Below are positions 2,230 to 50,383 of a DNA stretch of 64,000 nucleotides, piece by piece. The number at the start of each line of letters is the position of its first letter. Within the stretch, counting starts at the first letter, position 1. The notes under the pieces were generated by a model, which did no database searches, was not told the origin of the DNA, and worked only from the letters and a program-made list of their open reading frames with translations. The position numbers and the translations under genes are program-made. Source of the stretch: an uncultured Thermodesulfobacteriota bacterium (GTDB lineage: Bacteria > Desulfobacterota > GWC2-55-46 > JADFVP01); the NCBI GenBank assembly GCA_964407495.1, contig CAYOVP010000001.1, forward strand, positions 11,829 to 75,828, in the 5' to 3' direction.

Positions 2230-3975
2230 ATGCTTGTAGAACTGAGGATAAAGAACTTTGCCATAATAGAGAGCCTCGTTATTGAACTTGCAGGCGGGTT
2301 GAATGTCTTTACAGGCGAGACCGGCGCCGGCAAGAGCATCATAATGAACGCCATCTCCCTTGTGCTCGGAGACCGCGCCGCCGCTGACCTTGTGCGCACG
2401 GGAGCCCCTGGCGCCGAGGTAGAGGCCCTCTTCGATATCTCTGGCATGAGCGCCATCCGCCATGCCCTCGAGGAGGCCGGCATCGAGCCCTCCGATGACC
2501 TCGTCATAAAGCGCACCATAGCACGGGCCGGGAGGAACAGGATATACATAAACGGGAGCCTCGCCACCCTCGTAACCCTTACGGAGATTACGCGCAACCT
2601 TATCGACATTTACAGCCAGAGCGAGCATCAGAGCCTGACGCGCATGGAAGAGCACCTCGGTGTCCTCGATTCCTTCGGCGGCCTCGGGGAACTCAGGCGC
2701 CAGATGCAGGTGGCCTATGAAGACTACATCGCCATCTGTCGCGAGCGCGACTCACTCAAGGAGGACGACGGTGGCGCCACTGCCCGCAGGGAACTCCTTG
2801 CCTTTCAGGCCCGCGAAATAGAAGAAGCCGCCCTCACGCCTGGCGAGGAAGAGGAACTTAGGACACTGAGGCAGAGACTCCAGAACGCCGAGAAGATAAA
2901 GGGCGTTGCCGCACGGGCCGAAGAGGCGCTGTACTCGGCATCTGGTTCTGTCATAGAGCGCCTCGGCGCCGTGGTACGTGAACTCGGAGAGATATCTGCC
3001 TTTGACGATAAGGCCGCCTCGGCCCTCGAAGAGATAGAGTCCAGCCTTTACCAGATAGAGGACGCCGCGGCAACGCTCCGAGATATAGCCGGGGGCGTGG
3101 AGTTCGAGCCCGGAAGGCTCGAAGAGGTGGAGGACAGGCTCTACAGGATAGGTGCACTCAAGAAAAAATACGGCCCCACCATAGAGGCCATAGCAGAGTA
3201 CAAGAAAAAGATTGACGCCGAACTTGCCGGTCTTGACGACCTTGACGAGAGGCTCGCAGAGATAGAGGCAAGGCTCGAAGAAAAGGAAAAAATCGCGCGT
3301 GAGACCGCCGCGAGGCTCACGACGGCAAGGAGCAAGGCCGCAAGGGCGCTCAAGGCCAGGATGGAAGAAGAACTCGCCACCCTTGGGATGGAGGGGGCGG
3401 TCTTCGAGGTCCTCTTGAAGACAGAGGCGGACCAGGTCTCGGGCACTGCAAGGCTCACGGCCCGTGGTGCCGAGAGGGTGGCCTTTTATATCTCCACCAA
3501 TCCGGGTGAAGAGATAAAACCGCTGTCAAGGGTGGCCTCTGGCGGGGAACTCTCAAGGATAATGCTCGCCATAAAGAACATCAGCGCCGCTGGCAAGGTC
3601 CCCACGCTCATCTTCGACGAGATCGACACGGGCATAGGCGGTGCAATGGCCCACGTTGTGGGCGGTAAACTAAAGGCCCTCGCGAGAACTCACCAGGTGC
3701 TCTGCATAACGCACCTTCCACAGATAGCGGCCTTTGCGGACGAGCACTTTGTGGTCAAGAAGGAGACCATGGCCGCGGCAGGCGCAGGTGAGGACGCCAA
3801 GGACCTTTCAGAGAGGGAGGAGAGCACCAGGACGGTCACCACGGTACGGAGGCTCGAAGGCCGCGAGTGCTTAGAACAGATAGCATGGATGCTTGGCGGA
3901 ACCAATGTGACGGATACTACGCGGGAGCATGCAAGGGAACTCGTTGAGAGGGCGGTGCAGGGGAGTGTGGAGTAG
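2230..3975 (+). CDS. recN: DNA repair protein RecN
   Basis: N-terminal MLVELRIKNFAIIESL...FTGETGAGKSI (Walker A), long coiled-coil, C-terminal ABC signature/Walker B (PTLIFDEIDTGIGG). ATG at 2230 lies inside ORF 2224-3975. Confidence 0.93.
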   Translation: MLVELRIKNFAIIESLVIELAGGLNVFTGETGAGKSIIMNAISLVLGDRAAADLVRTGAPGAEVEALFDISGMSAIRHALEEAGIEPSDDLVIKRTIARAGRNRIYINGSLATLVTLTEITRNLIDIYSQSEHQSLTRMEEHLGVLDSFGGLGELRRQMQVAYEDYIAICRERDSLKEDDGGATARRELLAFQAREIEEAALTPGEEEELRTLRQRLQNAEKIKGVAARAEEALYSASGSVIERLGAVVRELGEISAFDDKAASALEEIESSLYQIEDAAATLRDIAGGVEFEPGRLEEVEDRLYRIGALKKKYGPTIEAIAEYKKKIDAELAGLDDLDERLAEIEARLEEKEKIARETAARLTTARSKAARALKARMEEELATLGMEGAVFEVLLKTEADQVSGTARLTARGAERVAFYISTNPGEEIKPLSRVASGGELSRIMLAIKNISAAGKVPTLIFDEIDTGIGGAMAHVVGGKLKALARTHQVLCITHLPQIAAFADEHFVVKKETMAAAGAGEDAKDLSEREESTRTVTTVRRLEGRECLEQIAWMLGGTNVTDTTREHARELVERAVQGSVE

Positions 3976-43252: not shown

Positions 43253-43879
43253 ATGCAGTTGAAGGAACTCCTTGAGAGGAACAAGCACTGGGCCAAAAAG
43301 ATAACGGGTATCAACCCGACTTTTTTCTCCGACCTTGCCAGGGAACAGAAACCAGGCCTCCTCTGGATAGGTTGCTCTGACAGCAGGGCCCCTGCGATCG
43401 AGGTCGTAGACCTCCTGCCTGGTTCCATCTTCGTACACCGCAACATCGCGAACCTCGTGGTACATACAGACCTCAACTGCCTCTCTGTCATCCAGTACGC
43501 GGTACAGGTACTTAACATAAATGACATAATCGTCTGCGGACACTACGGCTGTGGAGGTGTGAAGGCCGCCATGGACGGTAAGGAGCACGGCCTCATAGAC
43601 AACTGGCTCCGTCACATAAAGGACATATACCGCTATCACCAGGAGAAGATAGACGCGGTGAAGGACTTCAGGGAGCGGTGGAACCTCCTCTCTGAACTCA
43701 ATACAATCGAGCAGGTCTATAATGTCTGCCACACCACCATCGTACAGAACGCCTGGAAGGCTGGCAGGCCCCTCAGCGTACATGGCTGGGTGTACAATAT
43801 CGAGACAGGCCGCCTCAAGGACCTCGGTGTCTCCATATCAGATGCAGAGGGGATTTCGCGTCAACACAGGATGGGCTGA
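43253..43879 (+). CDS. Beta-class carbonic anhydrase
   Basis: Zn ligands in CSDSR and HxxCGG motifs (GCSDSRAPA..., CGHYGCGGV). Confidence 0.92.
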   Translation: MQLKELLERNKHWAKKITGINPTFFSDLAREQKPGLLWIGCSDSRAPAIEVVDLLPGSIFVHRNIANLVVHTDLNCLSVIQYAVQVLNINDIIVCGHYGCGGVKAAMDGKEHGLIDNWLRHIKDIYRYHQEKIDAVKDFRERWNLLSELNTIEQVYNVCHTTIVQNAWKAGRPLSVHGWVYNIETGRLKDLGVSISDAEGISRQHRMG

Positions 43880-44180: not shown

Positions 44181-44573
44181 ATGAAGATAGGCGAGTTCTC
44201 CAGACTGGCCGGCGTCTCTGTTGATACTGTGCGCTACTACGAAGGCAGGGGACTGCTGGAAAAACCGGCCCGCAGGGAGTCCGGTTACAGGGTGTACTCT
44301 GGCAAGGACCTCAGGCGTCTCAGGTTTATCATCCATGCCAAGGAACTGGGTTTCACCCTCCATGAGATAGGGCAACTTCTCTCCATACGCTCTGATGGGA
44401 GTGAGTGCGAGAGCGTCAAGGCCCTGGCAGAGCAGAAGGCGGAGGAAATGGAGGAGCGGATGAGAAAGATGGCCCGCATGAGGGACGTGCTCCTTGAACT
44501 TGCAGAAAAGTGCGGCGAGAGGGGAGGCCTTGACCCCTGTCCCATCCTGAAGGCCCTGGAGGAAGAAGGATGA
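44181..44573 (+). CDS. merR: Hg(II)-responsive transcriptional regulator MerR
   Basis: N-terminal HTH MKIGEFSRLAGVSVDTVRYYEGRGLL. Cys76/Cys111/Cys120 spaced 35 and 9 residues apart, the same spacing I recall for the Hg-coordinating Cys82/117/126 of Tn501 MerR, with C-x8-CP. Confidence 0.9.
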   Translation: MKIGEFSRLAGVSVDTVRYYEGRGLLEKPARRESGYRVYSGKDLRRLRFIIHAKELGFTLHEIGQLLSIRSDGSECESVKALAEQKAEEMEERMRKMARMRDVLLELAEKCGERGGLDPCPILKALEEEG

Positions 44574-44905
44574 ACGTGCCGGGCCCAAAGGGAGAGAAGA
44601 CGAGCCTCATTGGCGCGGTCATCGCAGGAGGGCTTGCCTCGGCCTGCTGCGTGGGGCCTCTTCTGGTGGTCCTCCTGGGCCTCGGCTCGGCAGGGGTTTT
44701 TGTGAAGATGGAACCACTGAGGCCCCTATTCGCCCTTATTACCCTTTCGCTAATCGGCATCGCGGGCTTCAGACACGTAAGGGGCAGAAGGGCGTGCGCC
44801 GCGGGCGGCTGCGCACCCCGTAGGCCTGTAATGCTCTTTATCCTCGGCGGACTCGCGCTCCTCCTGCTCCTTCTTCCCTCGGTCCTGCCCTATATTATCG
44901 AGTAA
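44570..44905 (+). CDS. merT: Mercuric transport protein MerT
   Basis: TM1 vicinal Cys pair in GGLASACCVGPLLVVLLGLG, ~111 aa with 3 TM helices, overlaps the merR stop. Confidence 0.88.
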   Translation: MNVPGPKGEKTSLIGAVIAGGLASACCVGPLLVVLLGLGSAGVFVKMEPLRPLFALITLSLIGIAGFRHVRGRRACAAGGCAPRRPVMLFILGGLALLLLLLPSVLPYIIE

Positions 44906-44917
44906 GGAGAACTTATC

Positions 44918-45214
44918 ATGGGAAAATTATTAATAGTCGTCATGCTCGCCGTCCTTGCGGCCATACCGGCAAGATACGCATCTTCAAAGGAGGCGACGGC
45001 TGTAATCCACGTATCCGGCATGACCTGCAACATGTGCCCCATAACCATACGCCGCCGCGTCCTCAAGATGGAGGGCGTACTGGAGGCACAAGTGGACCGA
45101 AAGGCCGGGAGAGCGAACGTGACGTATGACGACAGCCTGCTCTCTGCCGAGGCTATTGCCAGGGCCGTAACGGAACTTGGATATCCGGCGGAGTTGGAGG
45201 AAGAAAAGAAATGA
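44918..45214 (+). CDS. merP: Periplasmic mercury-binding protein MerP (HMA domain)
   Basis: Signal peptide plus GMTCNMCP metal-binding motif (GMTCxxC). Confidence 0.9.
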   Translation: MGKLLIVVMLAVLAAIPARYASSKEATAVIHVSGMTCNMCPITIRRRVLKMEGVLEAQVDRKAGRANVTYDDSLLSAEAIARAVTELGYPAELEEEKK

Positions 45215-45318
45215 AGAAGACAGAGAACAGGAAGGCGGGCTGGGCGGGGTTTATAATCTTTGCTGTAATACTCGTGGGCATCGTATATCTTATGACCAGG
45301 TGCGGCGGCACCTGTTAG
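45211..45318 (+). CDS. 35-aa single-TM peptide with C-terminal CxxxC (MKKTENRKAGWAGFIIFAVILVGIVYLMTRCGGTC), translationally coupled to merP
   Basis: ATG overlaps the merP stop (ATGA). GGAGG SD 10 nt upstream. Basic N-terminus, one hydrophobic helix, C-terminal CGGTC. Below the ORF-track size cutoff; coding status is an inference. Confidence 0.45.
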   Translation: MKKTENRKAGWAGFIIFAVILVGIVYLMTRCGGTC

Positions 45319-45322
45319 TGCC

Positions 45323-46991
<1,669 letters not shown>

Positions 46992-47181: not shown

Positions 47182-48957
47182 ATGTTTCTCGATAAAAAAC
47201 GGGGCCTTGGCGCCCTGTTGGTATTTTTTGTTCTGAGTCTTTTCGTTCTGGCCGGGTGCTCGAAGGGTCCTCAGAAGCCGGCTGGCAAGGCCTCCGTTGA
47301 GAAGGAGGCGACAGATGCGGCAAGGCCCGCCTCTGCCGAGAAGGCCGCAGCCGCTACGGAAAAGGCCGCCAAAGGTGGGGCCAGTACCCGGGCAGATGTA
47401 AAAACCGGCAAAAAGGTCTGGATAGAAAAGTGGATATATGCCCGCCCCATGCAGAAAAAGCGCGCAGGAGTGGCCGCCGTGGCCATAGGCAGGCGTATCT
47501 ACGCCATAGGAGGCGGCGAGTTCAGCAAGAAGGGGCTCAAGATCTTCAAGAGCGTTGAGTATGCCGATGTCCGGCCCGACGGTACGCTAAGCCCCTGGAA
47601 GTATTCCTCGCCCCTTACCATGCCCCGTGTCTACCCAGTTGCTGTTATTCACGATGGCTATATCTATGTCATGGGGGGCGAGTCCCTTGACGAGGTCTAC
47701 ACTGGCGCCGAGGACCAGAAGCCGCCGCGCCTTCTTAAATCCGTGGAGCGTGCACGGATTAACCCGGATGGTACCATCGGAAAGTGGACTCTCGAGAAGG
47801 TAAAGATGCACTTCCCACGCCGTGGTGGAGAGGTCTTCGCCGTGGACGGCTGGCTCTATGCCGGAGGGGGCTTTGGCGGAGACTTCCTGAACGACGTAGA
47901 GCGAGCCAGGATAAACACTGACGGCAGTCTCGGCACCTGGGAGGACGATAGTTTCTATAACCACGATAGGTACATCTCTGGTTTTGCCAGAAAGGGCCGC
48001 AGGCTCTATGTCATCGGCGGACACGTGAACAGCCCGGAGAGGGCCATGGAGTCCGTGGAGACTGCGGTGGCAAACCCTGACGGCACACTCACAGAGTGGG
48101 CAGAGACGAGCCCCCTGTATACGAGGCGTTTTCTGAATACGGCCTTAGTGGCGGGAGACACGCTCTATACCTTTGCAGGTCATAATACCATAAACCTGAC
48201 GAGCGTGGAGAGGGCAAGGATCCTTGAGGACGGGACCCTCGGGAAATGGGAGCCCGATACCTCTCTTAATGTGCCGCGCCGCGCCGCCTCCTCGGTTCTG
48301 GTGGGAGACAGGATCTACGTCATAGGCGGGATGATAAAGCCTATGGGGTTCTCCGACTCAGTGGACGTTGTGGAGACCGCCCAGATAGTGGAGGGAAAGA
48401 AACTCGGTAATTATGTTGCCCCTGACTCTGAGGATGCCAGGGAGTACGAGGTCCTTAAGGACACGGTGCCAACTGATGCGCGTAACCATATTTCGCACGG
48501 CAAGGCCTACTTCAAGAGAAGGGCATACAAGAGCGTACTCTTTGATGCCAAGGAGGCCCTAAAGGAGGCCCCCGGCCTGCCAGAGGCATACAACCTGATG
48601 GCTGACGCATACTTTGCCCTTGGACAGAAGAAGAAGGCAGAGAAGGCCCTCGAGGACTCGCTGCACTCAAAGGAGAACTTCTACGCCCTCATGGGCCTTG
48701 CATATGTTGCCTTTGACAGGGAAGACTTCGAGAAATCAATAGGTTATTACGAGCGTGCCGCGGCCCTGAAGCCCGATAACGTCACCGCGCGTTTCAACCT
48801 CGGCGAGGCATACCTCAATGCCGGGAGGTATGAAGACGCCGAGAAGGAGTTCAAGTGGGTCCTCGGCGTGCGGCCAGACCTCGAGGAAGCCAAACTATAC
48901 CTCAATATGAGCCGCAGGCACGTGGGGGGCAGAGCGGGCAAGAAGGGCCAAAAGTAG
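47182..48957 (+). CDS. Lipoprotein with Kelch-type beta-propeller repeats and C-terminal TPR repeats
   Basis: Lipobox LAGC. Six repeats with the Kelch-like hallmark (RIYAIGG, YIYVMGG, WLYAGGG, RLYVIGG, TLYTFAG, RIYVIGG). C-terminal TPR-like helices (..AYNLMADAYFALGQKKKAEKALE.., ..ARFNLGEAYLNAGRYEDAE..). Confidence 0.8.
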   Translation: MFLDKKRGLGALLVFFVLSLFVLAGCSKGPQKPAGKASVEKEATDAARPASAEKAAAATEKAAKGGASTRADVKTGKKVWIEKWIYARPMQKKRAGVAAVAIGRRIYAIGGGEFSKKGLKIFKSVEYADVRPDGTLSPWKYSSPLTMPRVYPVAVIHDGYIYVMGGESLDEVYTGAEDQKPPRLLKSVERARINPDGTIGKWTLEKVKMHFPRRGGEVFAVDGWLYAGGGFGGDFLNDVERARINTDGSLGTWEDDSFYNHDRYISGFARKGRRLYVIGGHVNSPERAMESVETAVANPDGTLTEWAETSPLYTRRFLNTALVAGDTLYTFAGHNTINLTSVERARILEDGTLGKWEPDTSLNVPRRAASSVLVGDRIYVIGGMIKPMGFSDSVDVVETAQIVEGKKLGNYVAPDSEDAREYEVLKDTVPTDARNHISHGKAYFKRRAYKSVLFDAKEALKEAPGLPEAYNLMADAYFALGQKKKAEKALEDSLHSKENFYALMGLAYVAFDREDFEKSIGYYERAAALKPDNVTARFNLGEAYLNAGRYEDAEKEFKWVLGVRPDLEEAKLYLNMSRRHVGGRAGKKGQK

Positions 48958-49241: not shown

Positions 49242-49610
49242 TCACTTTGCCGAGCACTTGCAGAGTTGGCGCAGGTAGTCTTTTAGTTCGCTTATCTCTT
49301 TCTTCGTGAGGGTATCGCCAAAGGGCGGCATCATGCGTGACCTGTTCGTAGCGGCCCCGCCTTCTCTTATGACGTTGATGAGGTCCTCGTCGCTGAGTTG
49401 GCTCATCTTCGCGGCATTGGTGTGGTTTCGCGGCCTGACAGGCTGTGTGGGGGTGTTGTTGGGGCCGTCACCCTTGCCATAGAGGCCGTGGCATGCCGCG
49501 CAGTAGAAGCGGTAGACTTCCTTGGCCGTTCCGGCACTGGCCGGGCCCATGGTAAGGGCACTGAGAAAGACGATGAGTGCCGCTGTCTTTAGAAGGATCC
49601 TGAAACTCAT
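49242..49610 (-). CDS. Monoheme c-type cytochrome (class I, secreted)
   Basis: Signal peptide, single CAACHG heme-binding motif, Met ligand region (MMPPFG). Confidence 0.85.
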   Translation of the reverse strand: MSFRILLKTAALIVFLSALTMGPASAGTAKEVYRFYCAACHGLYGKGDGPNNTPTQPVRPRNHTNAAKMSQLSDEDLINVIREGGAATNRSRMMPPFGDTLTKKEISELKDYLRQLCKCSAK

Positions 49611-49627
49611 GCCCTTTTCCAGTAGGT

Positions 49628-50383
49628 TTATTCCTGCGCCGCAACGTACTCCACAAGGGCCCTGAGTTTGACCTCTGAGAGCATCTTGGAGTACCTTGGC
49701 ATGGGGCTCGTGGGTGTGAAGGCCCCTGGGTTTTTTATGTAAGAGTAAATCCAGTCAGGGTTCAGCCTCTTTGCCGTCCCAATAAGGGTAGGGCCCGTGA
49801 GACCGCCCACAACCTTGGAGCCCCGCCTGATGGTGTGACACCCGTAGCACCCGAGTTTTTTCTGGAATATGAACCTGCCTCGCACCGTTGCCCGGGGCTT
49901 GATGTTGGCCTCCATTACATCAGGTGACTTGAGACCCCGGAGGTAGGCCGCTACCTCCACCGCCTCTCTTGCCGGGAGGGCCATATGATTGCCGTCGTTT
50001 TTCTCTGTAAGGGAGTTGTACTTCATCCCGCGTATGGGTGTTGGGTGGCGGAGCCAGGCCTCGATGAAGCCTTCTCTGAACTTGCTCCCTGCATACCAGA
50101 GCGCAGGCCCCTTCTCGCTGAGCCTCTCCTCTATGGTGGGCTTCTTTCCTGGTCTCTTTACGCTGTGGCAGGAGGCGCACTTGGCCCTGAAGATGGCCCT
50201 GCCGCTACCGGGCCCGGCCATTACCGTTGTAGCCATGAGCAACATGGCCGTAAAGAACGAGAGGACAAGAAGGAACTCGGTGCCCCTCCTGGGGATGCGA
50301 GGGTCTCTTGGGCCAGTTGGCCGGGCCTCCCTGGCAGGAGATTGCCATATTCCGCCCCTTCTCTGTTCTGCGTGCATTGCCAT
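49628..50383 (-). CDS. Diheme c-type cytochrome
   Basis: Two CxxCH motifs (CASCHS, CYGCHT), N-terminal TM/signal (FLLVLSFFTAMLLMATTVMA). Start may be an internal Met (~50287). Confidence 0.8.
   Translation of the reverse strand: MAMHAEQRRGGIWQSPAREARPTGPRDPRIPRRGTEFLLVLSFFTAMLLMATTVMAGPGSGRAIFRAKCASCHSVKRPGKKPTIEERLSEKGPALWYAGSKFREGFIEAWLRHPTPIRGMKYNSLTEKNDGNHMALPAREAVEVAAYLRGLKSPDVMEANIKPRATVRGRFIFQKKLGCYGCHTIRRGSKVVGGLTGPTLIGTAKRLNPDWIYSYIKNPGAFTPTSPMPRYSKMLSEVKLRALVEYVAAQE

What the first reader, a model, noticed from the sequence alone, without database searches (positions are those of the whole stretch)
45211..45318. Unannotated 35-codon ORF with CxxxC tail, translationally coupled between merP and merF
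An ATG overlapping the merP stop codon (ATGA at 45211-45214) sits 10 nt downstream of a GGAGG SD. It opens a frame encoding MKKTENRKAGWAGFIIFAVILVGIVYLMTRCGGTC, which stops just 4 nt before the merF ATG. The peptide has a basic cytoplasmic N-terminus, one TM helix and a C-terminal Cys-x3-Cys. This is the architecture expected for a small Hg(II)-relay or transporter-accessory peptide. The Cys pair would face the periplasm if positive-inside holds. I do not recognise it as any named mer gene (merE and merG are different), so it may be a new small accessory component of mer operons.
Basis: partly seen in the sequence, partly recalled or inferred. Interest (0 to 1): 0.6.

Follow-up and report, generated by a model that had tools for sequence, protein, structure and literature searches.

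The report
Conserved small cysteine-tailed mer operon peptide
The 35-codon reading frame between merP and merF is a real, conserved small membrane-protein gene with an invariant C-terminal cysteine pair. It belongs to no named family and occurs only in a narrow group of mercury-resistance operons from uncultured bacteria, and its role in mercury handling is inferred, not shown.

Summary
ORF 45211-45318 (+) encodes MKKTENRKAGWAGFIIFAVILVGIVYLMTRCGGTC. Its ATG overlaps the merP stop (ATGA), and a GGAGG lies 10 nt upstream. It sits inside a merR-merT-merP-[ORF]-merF-merA operon.

It is more than a chance ORF. Four other diverged operons (MerP 52-54%, MerA 65-71% identical) carry a 38-41 codon homologue in the same slot. 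In every one the start codon overlaps the merP stop, and the tail R-C-G-x-T-C-stop is invariant. Indels are multiples of three, substitutions follow codon periodicity (0.38/0.24/0.50), and pN is below pS in every pair.

The product is one transmembrane helix with a basic N-terminus (K+R 2-5 against 1), which favours N-in/C-out. It matches nothing in Pfam, NCBIfam or PDB, and is not homologous to MerF or MerT.

The family is tiny. A full profile search of 1.84 billion representative proteins found only its own two clusters, and 79 other merF loci and 72,556 plasmids lack it.

Best reading: a lineage-specific accessory membrane peptide whose thiol pair handles Hg(II) at the membrane surface next to MerP, MerF and MerT. 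That function is inferred.

Corrections: merF most likely starts at 45335, not 45323, and public pipelines already call this ORF as an unnamed gene.

The parts
44181..44573 (+). merR (130 aa), first gene of the co-directional operon
   Evidence: Pfam MerR_1, MerR-DNA-bind and MerR; NCBIfam TIGR02051 E=9e-38, which is below the curated cut-off
44570..44905 (+). merT (111 aa): CC in TM1 and a C-x4-C loop
   Evidence: Pfam PF02411 MerT, 50.7 bits against a cut-off of 32.9; alignment A7
44918..45214 (+). merP (98 aa): signal peptide and GMTCxxC HMA domain. Its TGA stop overlaps the peptide's ATG
   Evidence: Pfam HMA and NCBIfam TIGR02052 E=9e-19; sequence
45196..45200 (+). GGAGG Shine-Dalgarno-like motif, 10 nt upstream of the peptide's ATG, inside the merP 3' end
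   Evidence: Direct reading. G-rich SD-like stretches occur in the same place in L025, L129 and L133
45211..45318 (+). The small gene: 35 aa, basic N-terminus, one TM helix (about residues 9-29), invariant tail R30-C31-G32-x-T34-C35
   Evidence: ORF; orthologues in L025, L129, L132 and L133; codon-level constraint; AF2 single helix 4-34, pLDDT 77; hydropathy and charge
45335..45583 (+). merF (82 aa from the likely start 45335; an upstream in-frame ATG at 45323 lacks an SD): CC in TM1 and C-x2-C at the C-terminus
   Evidence: NCBIfam NF033565 103.8 bits, Pfam PF11431; start inferred from alignment A6 and from gene calls
45576..46991 (+). merA core enzyme (471 aa) without the N-terminal NmerA/HMA domain, ending in ...SCCAG
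   Evidence: NCBIfam TIGR02053 547 bits; the match to NF010311 starts at model position 88 of 560; gene call

Best explanation
The ORF is a genuine protein-coding gene of the mer operon. Its translation is coupled to merP through the ATGA stop/start overlap. It makes a 35-aa single-pass inner-membrane peptide, most likely with the basic N-terminus in the cytoplasm. The last six residues, R-C-G-x-T-C-COOH, would then sit at the periplasmic membrane surface. The two invariant cysteines lie one helical turn apart. They would form a membrane-anchored dithiol site that binds Hg(II) and takes part in the hand-off from periplasmic MerP to the membrane transporters, most plausibly MerF, whose gene it always immediately precedes. 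Shown here: the gene is real, it is under purifying selection at the amino-acid level, it is strictly syntenic and start-overlapped with merP, it has a one-TM architecture and an invariant Cys pair, and it is not homologous to known mer proteins. Inferred: the topology, Hg(II) binding, and the partner.
For: The same slot, strand and stop-overlapping start (ATGA four times, GTGA once) are found in five diverged operons. The neighbouring proteins are only 52-77% identical to those of the window. Pairwise pS is 0.45-0.80 in all pairs but the nearly identical L132/L133 (0.19), too high for a distance correction in four pairs, against pN 0.19-0.44 (0.08 in L132/L133). A frame-blind nucleotide alignment gives indels of 18 and 9 nt and a pairwise difference by codon position of 0.38/0.24/0.50. 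The invariant residues are K8, F14, G23, L27, R30, C31, G32, T34 and C35, and the Arg is encoded by AGG, AGA or CGC and the Gly by GGC or GGT. The operon occurs in at least two different genomic neighbourhoods (against 12, 57), so the peptide travels with the operon. The uncharged span is 19-24 aa, with K+R of 2-5 on the N side and 1 on the C side in all five. AF2 gives one continuous helix. No conserved RNA structure explains the conservation. From established knowledge, every Hg(II)-handling Mer protein uses cysteine pairs, and the MerF cysteine pairs are reported as exposed to the cytoplasm (statement in PMC5500634). A periplasm-side thiol pair would therefore fill a plausible gap.
Against: There are no experimental data on expression, topology, metal binding or phenotype. 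The charge bias is weak in two members (2 against 1). MerF alone is reported to be sufficient for Hg(II) transport (PMC5500634), and most merP-merF operons have no such gene, so the peptide is dispensable for the general mechanism. The closest relative by MerP (73% identity, L125) has an unrelated 103-aa soluble ORF in the slot. There are only five distinct sequences, from one related group of operons. C-x3-C at a free C-terminus is not a documented Hg(II) site in Mer proteins.
Confidence: 0.5

Rival explanations
1. Same real peptide, opposite topology (N-out/C-in). The Cys pair sits on the cytoplasmic face and passes Hg(II) from MerT or MerF to MerA. It would substitute for the missing NmerA domain or for the weak C-terminal Cys motif of MerF.
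For: MerA here is the 471-aa core without NmerA. The MerF C-terminal motif is variable in these operons: CxxC, CC, or only a single Cys in L132 and L133. The charge bias is only 2 against 1 in L132 and L133.
Against: K+R is higher on the N side in all five members, 4-5 against 1 in two of them. Moving a 10-16 residue charged N-tail across the membrane is less favourable than moving a 6-residue C-tail (general knowledge). Many NmerA-less MerA operons work without such a peptide.
Confidence: 0.15
2. A real small membrane protein that acts as a structural, assembly or regulatory subunit of MerF or MerT, in the way KdpF, CydX or AcrZ serve their partners. The cysteines would serve dimerisation or stability rather than Hg(II) transfer.
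For: It has the single-TM small-protein architecture. There is an invariant Gly (G23) with small residues nearby, typical of helix-helix packing. Its position is fixed immediately upstream of merF.
Against: The most strictly conserved element is the terminal RCGxTC, not the helix. In a mer operon an invariant Cys pair is most simply read as a mercury ligand.
Confidence: 0.2
3. The product is irrelevant. The ORF is kept only so that ribosomes pass from merP to merF (a translational-coupling spacer), or it is a chance ORF in GC-rich DNA.
For: Short ORFs are abundant in this window. The antisense frame -1 is also stop-free in all five sequences. Gene callers skipped the ORF in L129 and L132.
Against: Conservation is at the amino-acid level. 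Synonymous differences are high to saturating, pN is below pS, and variation follows a 3>1>2 codon periodicity in this frame. Indels are in multiples of 3. The C-terminal motif is invariant while its codons vary. In other lineages merP is followed directly by merF with no spacer ORF, so coupling does not need one.
Confidence: 0.05

Closest known systems
MerE (about 78 aa) and MerF (about 81 aa), the small Cys-pair Hg(II) transporters of mer operons
   Same: They are small inner-membrane proteins encoded inside mer operons, downstream of merP/merT. Their function depends on a cysteine pair.
   Different: MerE and MerF have two TM helices with the key pair (CPC or CC) inside TM1 (PMC3466566). 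This peptide has one TM helix and a C-x3-C at the extreme C-terminus. There is no HMM match to PF11431, NF033565 or NF010310, and hhalign against a MerF alignment gives a probability of 0.8%.
MerT (PF02411)
   Same: It is an Hg(II)-handling membrane protein of the same operon, and it has a second Cys pair in a loop next to a TM helix.
   Different: MerT has three TM helices and 106-116 aa. hhalign gives a probability of 1.2%, and there is no HMM hit.
FeoB-associated Cys-rich membrane protein (PF12669). The resemblance is recalled from memory.
   Same: It is a very small protein with one TM helix followed by a short Cys-containing C-terminal tail, encoded next to a metal transporter gene.
   Different: No Pfam hit was found even at E<=10. 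The tail motif differs: a single C-x3-C rather than a Cys-rich run. The context is mer, not feo.
Small single-TM accessory subunits of transporters and oxidases (KdpF, CydX, AcrZ). This is a general-knowledge analogy.
   Same: They are 30-50 aa, have one TM helix, are co-transcribed with the partner membrane protein, and are often missed by annotation.
   Different: Those proteins lack a conserved thiol pair. No homology was tested or expected, and partner binding is not shown here.

Membership tests
MerF (PF11431 / NF033565) | Match to the family HMM; two TM helices; vicinal CC in TM1 | tested here: not met
   There is no hit at E<=10 for any of the five members. hhalign against the MerF alignment gives a probability of 0.8%. 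The peptide has one TM helix and no CC.
MerT (PF02411) | Match to the family HMM; three TM helices; CC in TM1 plus a cytoplasmic loop Cys pair | tested here: not met
   No HMM hit. hhalign probability is 1.2%.
MerE (NF010310) / MerC (PF03203, NF010318) | Match to the family HMM; two (MerE) or four (MerC) TM helices | tested here: not met
   No hit in NCBIfam or Pfam at E<=10.
FeoB-associated Cys-rich membrane protein (PF12669) | Match to the Pfam HMM | tested here: not met
   PF12669 is absent from the Pfam hit lists at E<=10 for all five members.
mer operon gene (operational definition) | Same strand and transcription unit as merR/T/P/F/A, with no promoter or terminator in between | tested here: met
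   The start overlaps the merP stop, and the stop lies 16 nt before merF. No promoter-like or terminator-like site lies between 44918 and 45583.
mer operon gene (operational definition) | Conserved synteny with mer genes across diverged genomes | tested here: met
   All five distinct operons have merP-[peptide]-merF-merA.
mer operon gene (operational definition) | Hg(II)-inducible expression and a contribution to the Hg phenotype | not testable with these tools
   This needs expression and genetics. The hosts are uncultured MAGs or metagenome contigs.
Protein-coding small ORF (as opposed to a spacer or RNA element) | Purifying selection in this frame; no conserved RNA structure | tested here: met
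   pN is below pS, variation follows codon periodicity, and indels are in multiples of 3. Rfam finds nothing, the fold z-score is 0.38, and RNAalifold shows no covariation.

The most novel reading that the evidence does not exclude
The peptide is an obligate third partner. It would supply the only periplasm-facing thiol pair of a two-component MerF-type Hg(II) importer, receiving Hg(II) from MerP and passing it to the cytoplasm-exposed cysteines of MerF. If so, very small, caller-invisible, lineage-specific thiol peptides would be a general and overlooked layer of mer transport. The variable merP-merF slot fits this idea: other lineages carry an unnamed 83-87 aa CC protein or a 103-aa ORF there.
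Probability: 0.15. Interest if true: 0.6.

Novelty: new variant of a known kind. Interest (0 to 1): 0.42.

Why it matters
The mer operon is a textbook metal-detoxification system. Its component list (MerR/D, P, T, C, E, F, G, H, A, B) is treated as essentially complete in the reviews I read (PMC3466566, PMC8261052). A conserved single-pass peptide of 35-41 aa with a terminal Cys pair would add a new and architecturally distinct accessory element. It would also show that small genes are systematically missed in these operons, since it was not called in 2 of 5 lineages. The impact is limited by the very narrow distribution: five sequences, all from uncultured bacteria. The function is also untested, and Hg(II) transport by MerF or MerT is known to work without such a peptide.

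Tried and rejected
A tandem-duplicated query found nothing.
- A profile headed by the 41-aa member recovered only P0001, P0002 and a new member, P0007.
- A full HMMER profile search of 1.84 billion representatives returned only the family's own two clusters. Only 3 of the 5 sequences could be submitted.
- A metagenome scan with a MerP alignment gave 41 distant MerP loci (at most 44% identity), none with the peptide.
- tblastn of both peptide subtypes against 72,556 plasmids gave nothing below E=1.
- A viral-contig scan gave nothing.
- Searches of Pfam, NCBIfam and PDB sequences gave only TM-noise hits.
- Homology to a MerF or MerT helix is rejected by hhalign.
- An RNA-element reading is rejected: no Rfam hit, fold z=0.38, no covariation. 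The CAGGTGC-GGCG-GCACCTG hairpin over the Cys codons is specific to the window.
- A programmed frameshift fusing MerP to the peptide is rejected, because no conserved slippery site exists at the five junctions.
- A type I toxin, RiPP precursor or C-terminal sorting signal was considered and rejected on context and architecture alone. There are no modifying enzymes nearby, and the motif order differs.
- Four literature searches found no description of such a peptide.

Full report
**1. The observation**

Reading the window and listing ORFs confirm a 35-codon frame at 45211-45318 (+). Its ATG (45211-45213) overlaps the merP TGA (45212-45214). GGAGG lies at 45196-45200, 10 nt upstream. The product is MKKTENRKAGWAGFIIFAVILVGIVYLMTRCGGTC, and the stop is TAG at 45316-45318.

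Pfam and NCBIfam confirm the flanking genes:
- merR, 44181-44573
- merT, 44570-44905
- merP, 44918-45214
- merF, NF033565, 104 bits
- merA, TIGR02053, 547 bits. It is 471 aa and lacks the NmerA domain.

Two details need correcting:
- The merF ATG 4 nt after the stop (45323) has no SD. Four orthologous MerF proteins begin M-[KR]-[KR]-S, which aligns with the ATG at 45335. That ATG has GAGG 6 nt upstream and is the one public gene callers use. The spacer is therefore probably 16 nt.
- The ORF is not wholly unannotated. The exact peptide is gene-called, without a name, in JGI, NCBI and Logan assemblies.

**2. Is it more than chance?**

A 35-codon open frame alone means little here. There are 112 ORFs of at least 25 aa in 8 kb. 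The decisive evidence is comparative.

I fetched 80 merF loci from one-genome-per-species contigs. One of them, L025, a Thermodesulfobacteriota MAG, has a 38-codon ORF in the same slot: MSESVVKKGLRGDVLFFVGGIVVIAGVLWLFARCGLTC.

I then looked up the contigs that encode the closest MerP relatives and read their merP-merF gaps. This gave two more copies, neither of which had been gene-called:
- L129: VREGSEVREGRKEKISWTGFLVFALIAAGIIWLMTRCGVTC
- L132: MTETTAKKALWPGLLFVVGAVAIIAGVIWLFARCGLTC

A profile word search added a fifth, P0007 on locus L133: MNEATVKKALWPDVLFVVGAVAIIAGVIWLLARCGLTC.

In all five the start codon overlaps the merP stop (ATGA four times, GTGA once). All five frames end in R-C-G-x-T-C-stop, 12-18 nt before merF.

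The operons are well diverged from the window: MerP 52-54%, MerF 60-77%, MerA 65-71% identical. The peptide gene is 51-59% identical at the nucleotide level between the main subtypes.

Evidence for coding constraint in this frame:
- The proportion of synonymous differences is 0.45-0.80 (0.19 only between the near-identical L132 and L133), too high for a distance correction in four pairs. The non-synonymous proportion is 0.19-0.44 (0.08 for L132/L133). Where it can be computed, dN/dS is 0.22-0.75.
- A nucleotide alignment made without any frame information places indels of 18 and 9 nt. It shows a pairwise difference of 0.38/0.24/0.50 at codon positions 1/2/3 (the same pattern appears).
- The invariant Arg is encoded by AGG, AGA or CGC, and the invariant Gly by GGC or GGT.
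- The sense frame has no stop in any of the five. Of the other frames, only the antisense -1 frame is also stop-free in all five, a pattern I recall as common opposite real genes; it shows none of the other coding signals.

There is no Rfam match. The region does not fold better than shuffles (z=0.38). RNAalifold finds no covariation. This is therefore a protein-coding gene under purifying selection, not a spacer and not an RNA element.

**3. Anatomy**

Each member has three parts:
- a short charged N-terminus (K+R 2-5)
- an uncharged span of 19-24 residues (mean Kyte-Doolittle value 2.2-2.9 over the best 18)
- a six-residue tail, R-C-G-x-T-C, carrying the only C-side positive charge

AF2 models one continuous helix from residue 4 to 34, with pLDDT about 90 in the core. 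If the helix runs to the end, C31 and C35 are one turn apart on the same face.

The invariant positions are K8, F14, G23, L27, R30, C31, G32, T34 and C35.

Counting K+R favours N-in/C-out in all five. The bias is strong in the window and in L129 (4-5 against 1) and weak in L132 and L133 (2 against 1).

**4. Distribution**

The family is very narrow:
- A full HMMER profile search of 1.84 billion 50%-identity representatives found only its own two clusters.
- The word-indexed search of 5.8 billion clusters found three.
- Both peptide subtypes find nothing in 72,556 plasmids, and nothing in viral contigs.
- Of the 80 merF loci, 79 lack it. In most of those, merP abuts merF directly.
- The 41 distant MerP loci from metagenomes also lack it.

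The window, L125 and L133 share a chromosomal neighbourhood: Fe-SOD, a 4HBT thioesterase, the mer operon, then a Kelch/TPR protein. L025 and its copies L134-L136 sit in a different neighbourhood, so the peptide travels with the operon.

Gene callers missed the peptide in 2 of 5 lineages. Protein-database counts therefore underestimate its frequency.

**5. Comparison with known families**

There is no hit above noise in Pfam, NCBIfam or PDB sequences for any member. Profile-profile comparison with the operons' own MerF and MerT alignments gives probabilities of 0.8% and 1.2%.

Reviews list the mer membrane components as MerT (3 TM), MerC and MerH (4 TM), and MerF and MerE (2 TM), together with MerG (PMC3466566; PMC8261052). 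A single-pass peptide of 35-41 aa is not among them. Four full-text literature searches found no description of one.

The architecture recalls FeoB-associated Cys-rich membrane proteins (PF12669), but that HMM does not match.

**6. Mechanism**

Shown:
- a conserved small membrane-protein gene
- translation coupled to merP
- a position that is always immediately upstream of merF
- an invariant terminal Cys pair

Inferred:
- Every Hg(II)-handling Mer protein works through cysteine pairs.
- The MerF pairs are reported to be exposed to the cytoplasm (PMC5500634).
- The most economical reading is therefore a membrane-anchored dithiol at the periplasmic surface that joins the MerP-to-transporter hand-off.

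Rivals:
- The opposite topology, feeding the NmerA-less MerA. This is made slightly attractive by the variable MerF C-terminal motif: CxxC, CC, or a single Cys in L132 and L133.
- A structural or assembly subunit with no role in metal transfer.
- A product-irrelevant coupling spacer. The codon evidence disfavours this.

Points against any essential role:
- MerF alone is reported to be sufficient for transport.
- Most operons lack the peptide.
- In the closest MerP relative (L125) the slot holds an unrelated 103-aa ORF.

**7. Verdict**

The Hg(II)-relay function is plausible but untested (about 0.5 for the combined statement).

It is a new, non-homologous small component in a known system, restricted to a narrow lineage of uncultured bacteria. 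I rate it a new variant of a known kind, of moderate interest.

Noticed in passing
L125 3318-3629 (also L126-L128): In the operon whose MerP is closest to the window's (73% identity, same SOD/4HBT/Kelch-TPR neighbourhood), the merP-merF slot holds an unrelated 103-aa soluble ORF. It also starts on an ATGA overlap with merP. Its only match is a sub-threshold hit to NCBIfam 'DF family (seleno)protein' (37.8 bits against a cut-off of 70). In that operon MerF ends before its C-terminal Cys motif and merA is absent.
   Followed up: partly
L062 2726-2977; L014 about 2757-3017 (similar ORFs in L002, L016, L017, L020, L080): Rhodobacteraceae-type and Competibacteraceae-type operons carry a different, unnamed 83-87 aa two-TM protein between merP and merF. 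It has a CC pair in TM1, and in L062, L080 and L002 also a Cys or CC near the C-terminus. It has no NCBIfam match. The merP-merF slot appears to be a hotspot for lineage-specific small thiol membrane proteins.
   Followed up: partly
window 45323 vs 45335: merF has two in-frame ATGs. Orthologue alignment, an SD (GAGG, 6 nt upstream) and public gene calls all favour 45335, giving an 82-aa MerF.
   Followed up: yes
window 45335-45583; L025, L129, L132, L133 MerF C-termini (alignment A6): The second (C-terminal) cysteine motif of MerF varies among the peptide-bearing operons: C-x2-C (window, L129), CC (L025), or a single Cys (L132, L133).
   Followed up: partly
window 45576-46991: MerA is the 471-aa catalytic core without the N-terminal NmerA (HMA) domain. 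Its start overlaps the end of merF by 8 nt.
   Followed up: partly
L129 1884-2009; L132 643-759: The peptide gene was not called by the pipelines that annotated these two contigs. Protein-database searches therefore under-count the family.
   Followed up: yes
window 44890-45402 (-): A 170-aa antisense ORF runs opposite merP, the peptide and the merF start. The corresponding antisense frame is stop-free across the peptide gene in all five loci. In L025 the longest antisense ORF across the peptide gene is only 43 aa, so the 170-aa ORF is probably a by-product of the sense genes.
   Followed up: partly
window 45297-45314: A perfect 7-bp inverted repeat, CAGGTGC-GGCG-GCACCTG, spans the R-C-G-G-T-C codons. 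It is not conserved in the other four loci (only a 4-pair stem is predicted, with no covariation).
   Followed up: yes
window 43253-43879, 47182-48957, 49242-50383: The operon is flanked by a beta-carbonic anhydrase (Pro_CA), a 591-aa Kelch/TPR protein and two c-type cytochrome genes on the minus strand. The neighbourhood is shared with L125 and L133, which suggests a chromosomal rather than plasmid or transposon location.
   Followed up: no
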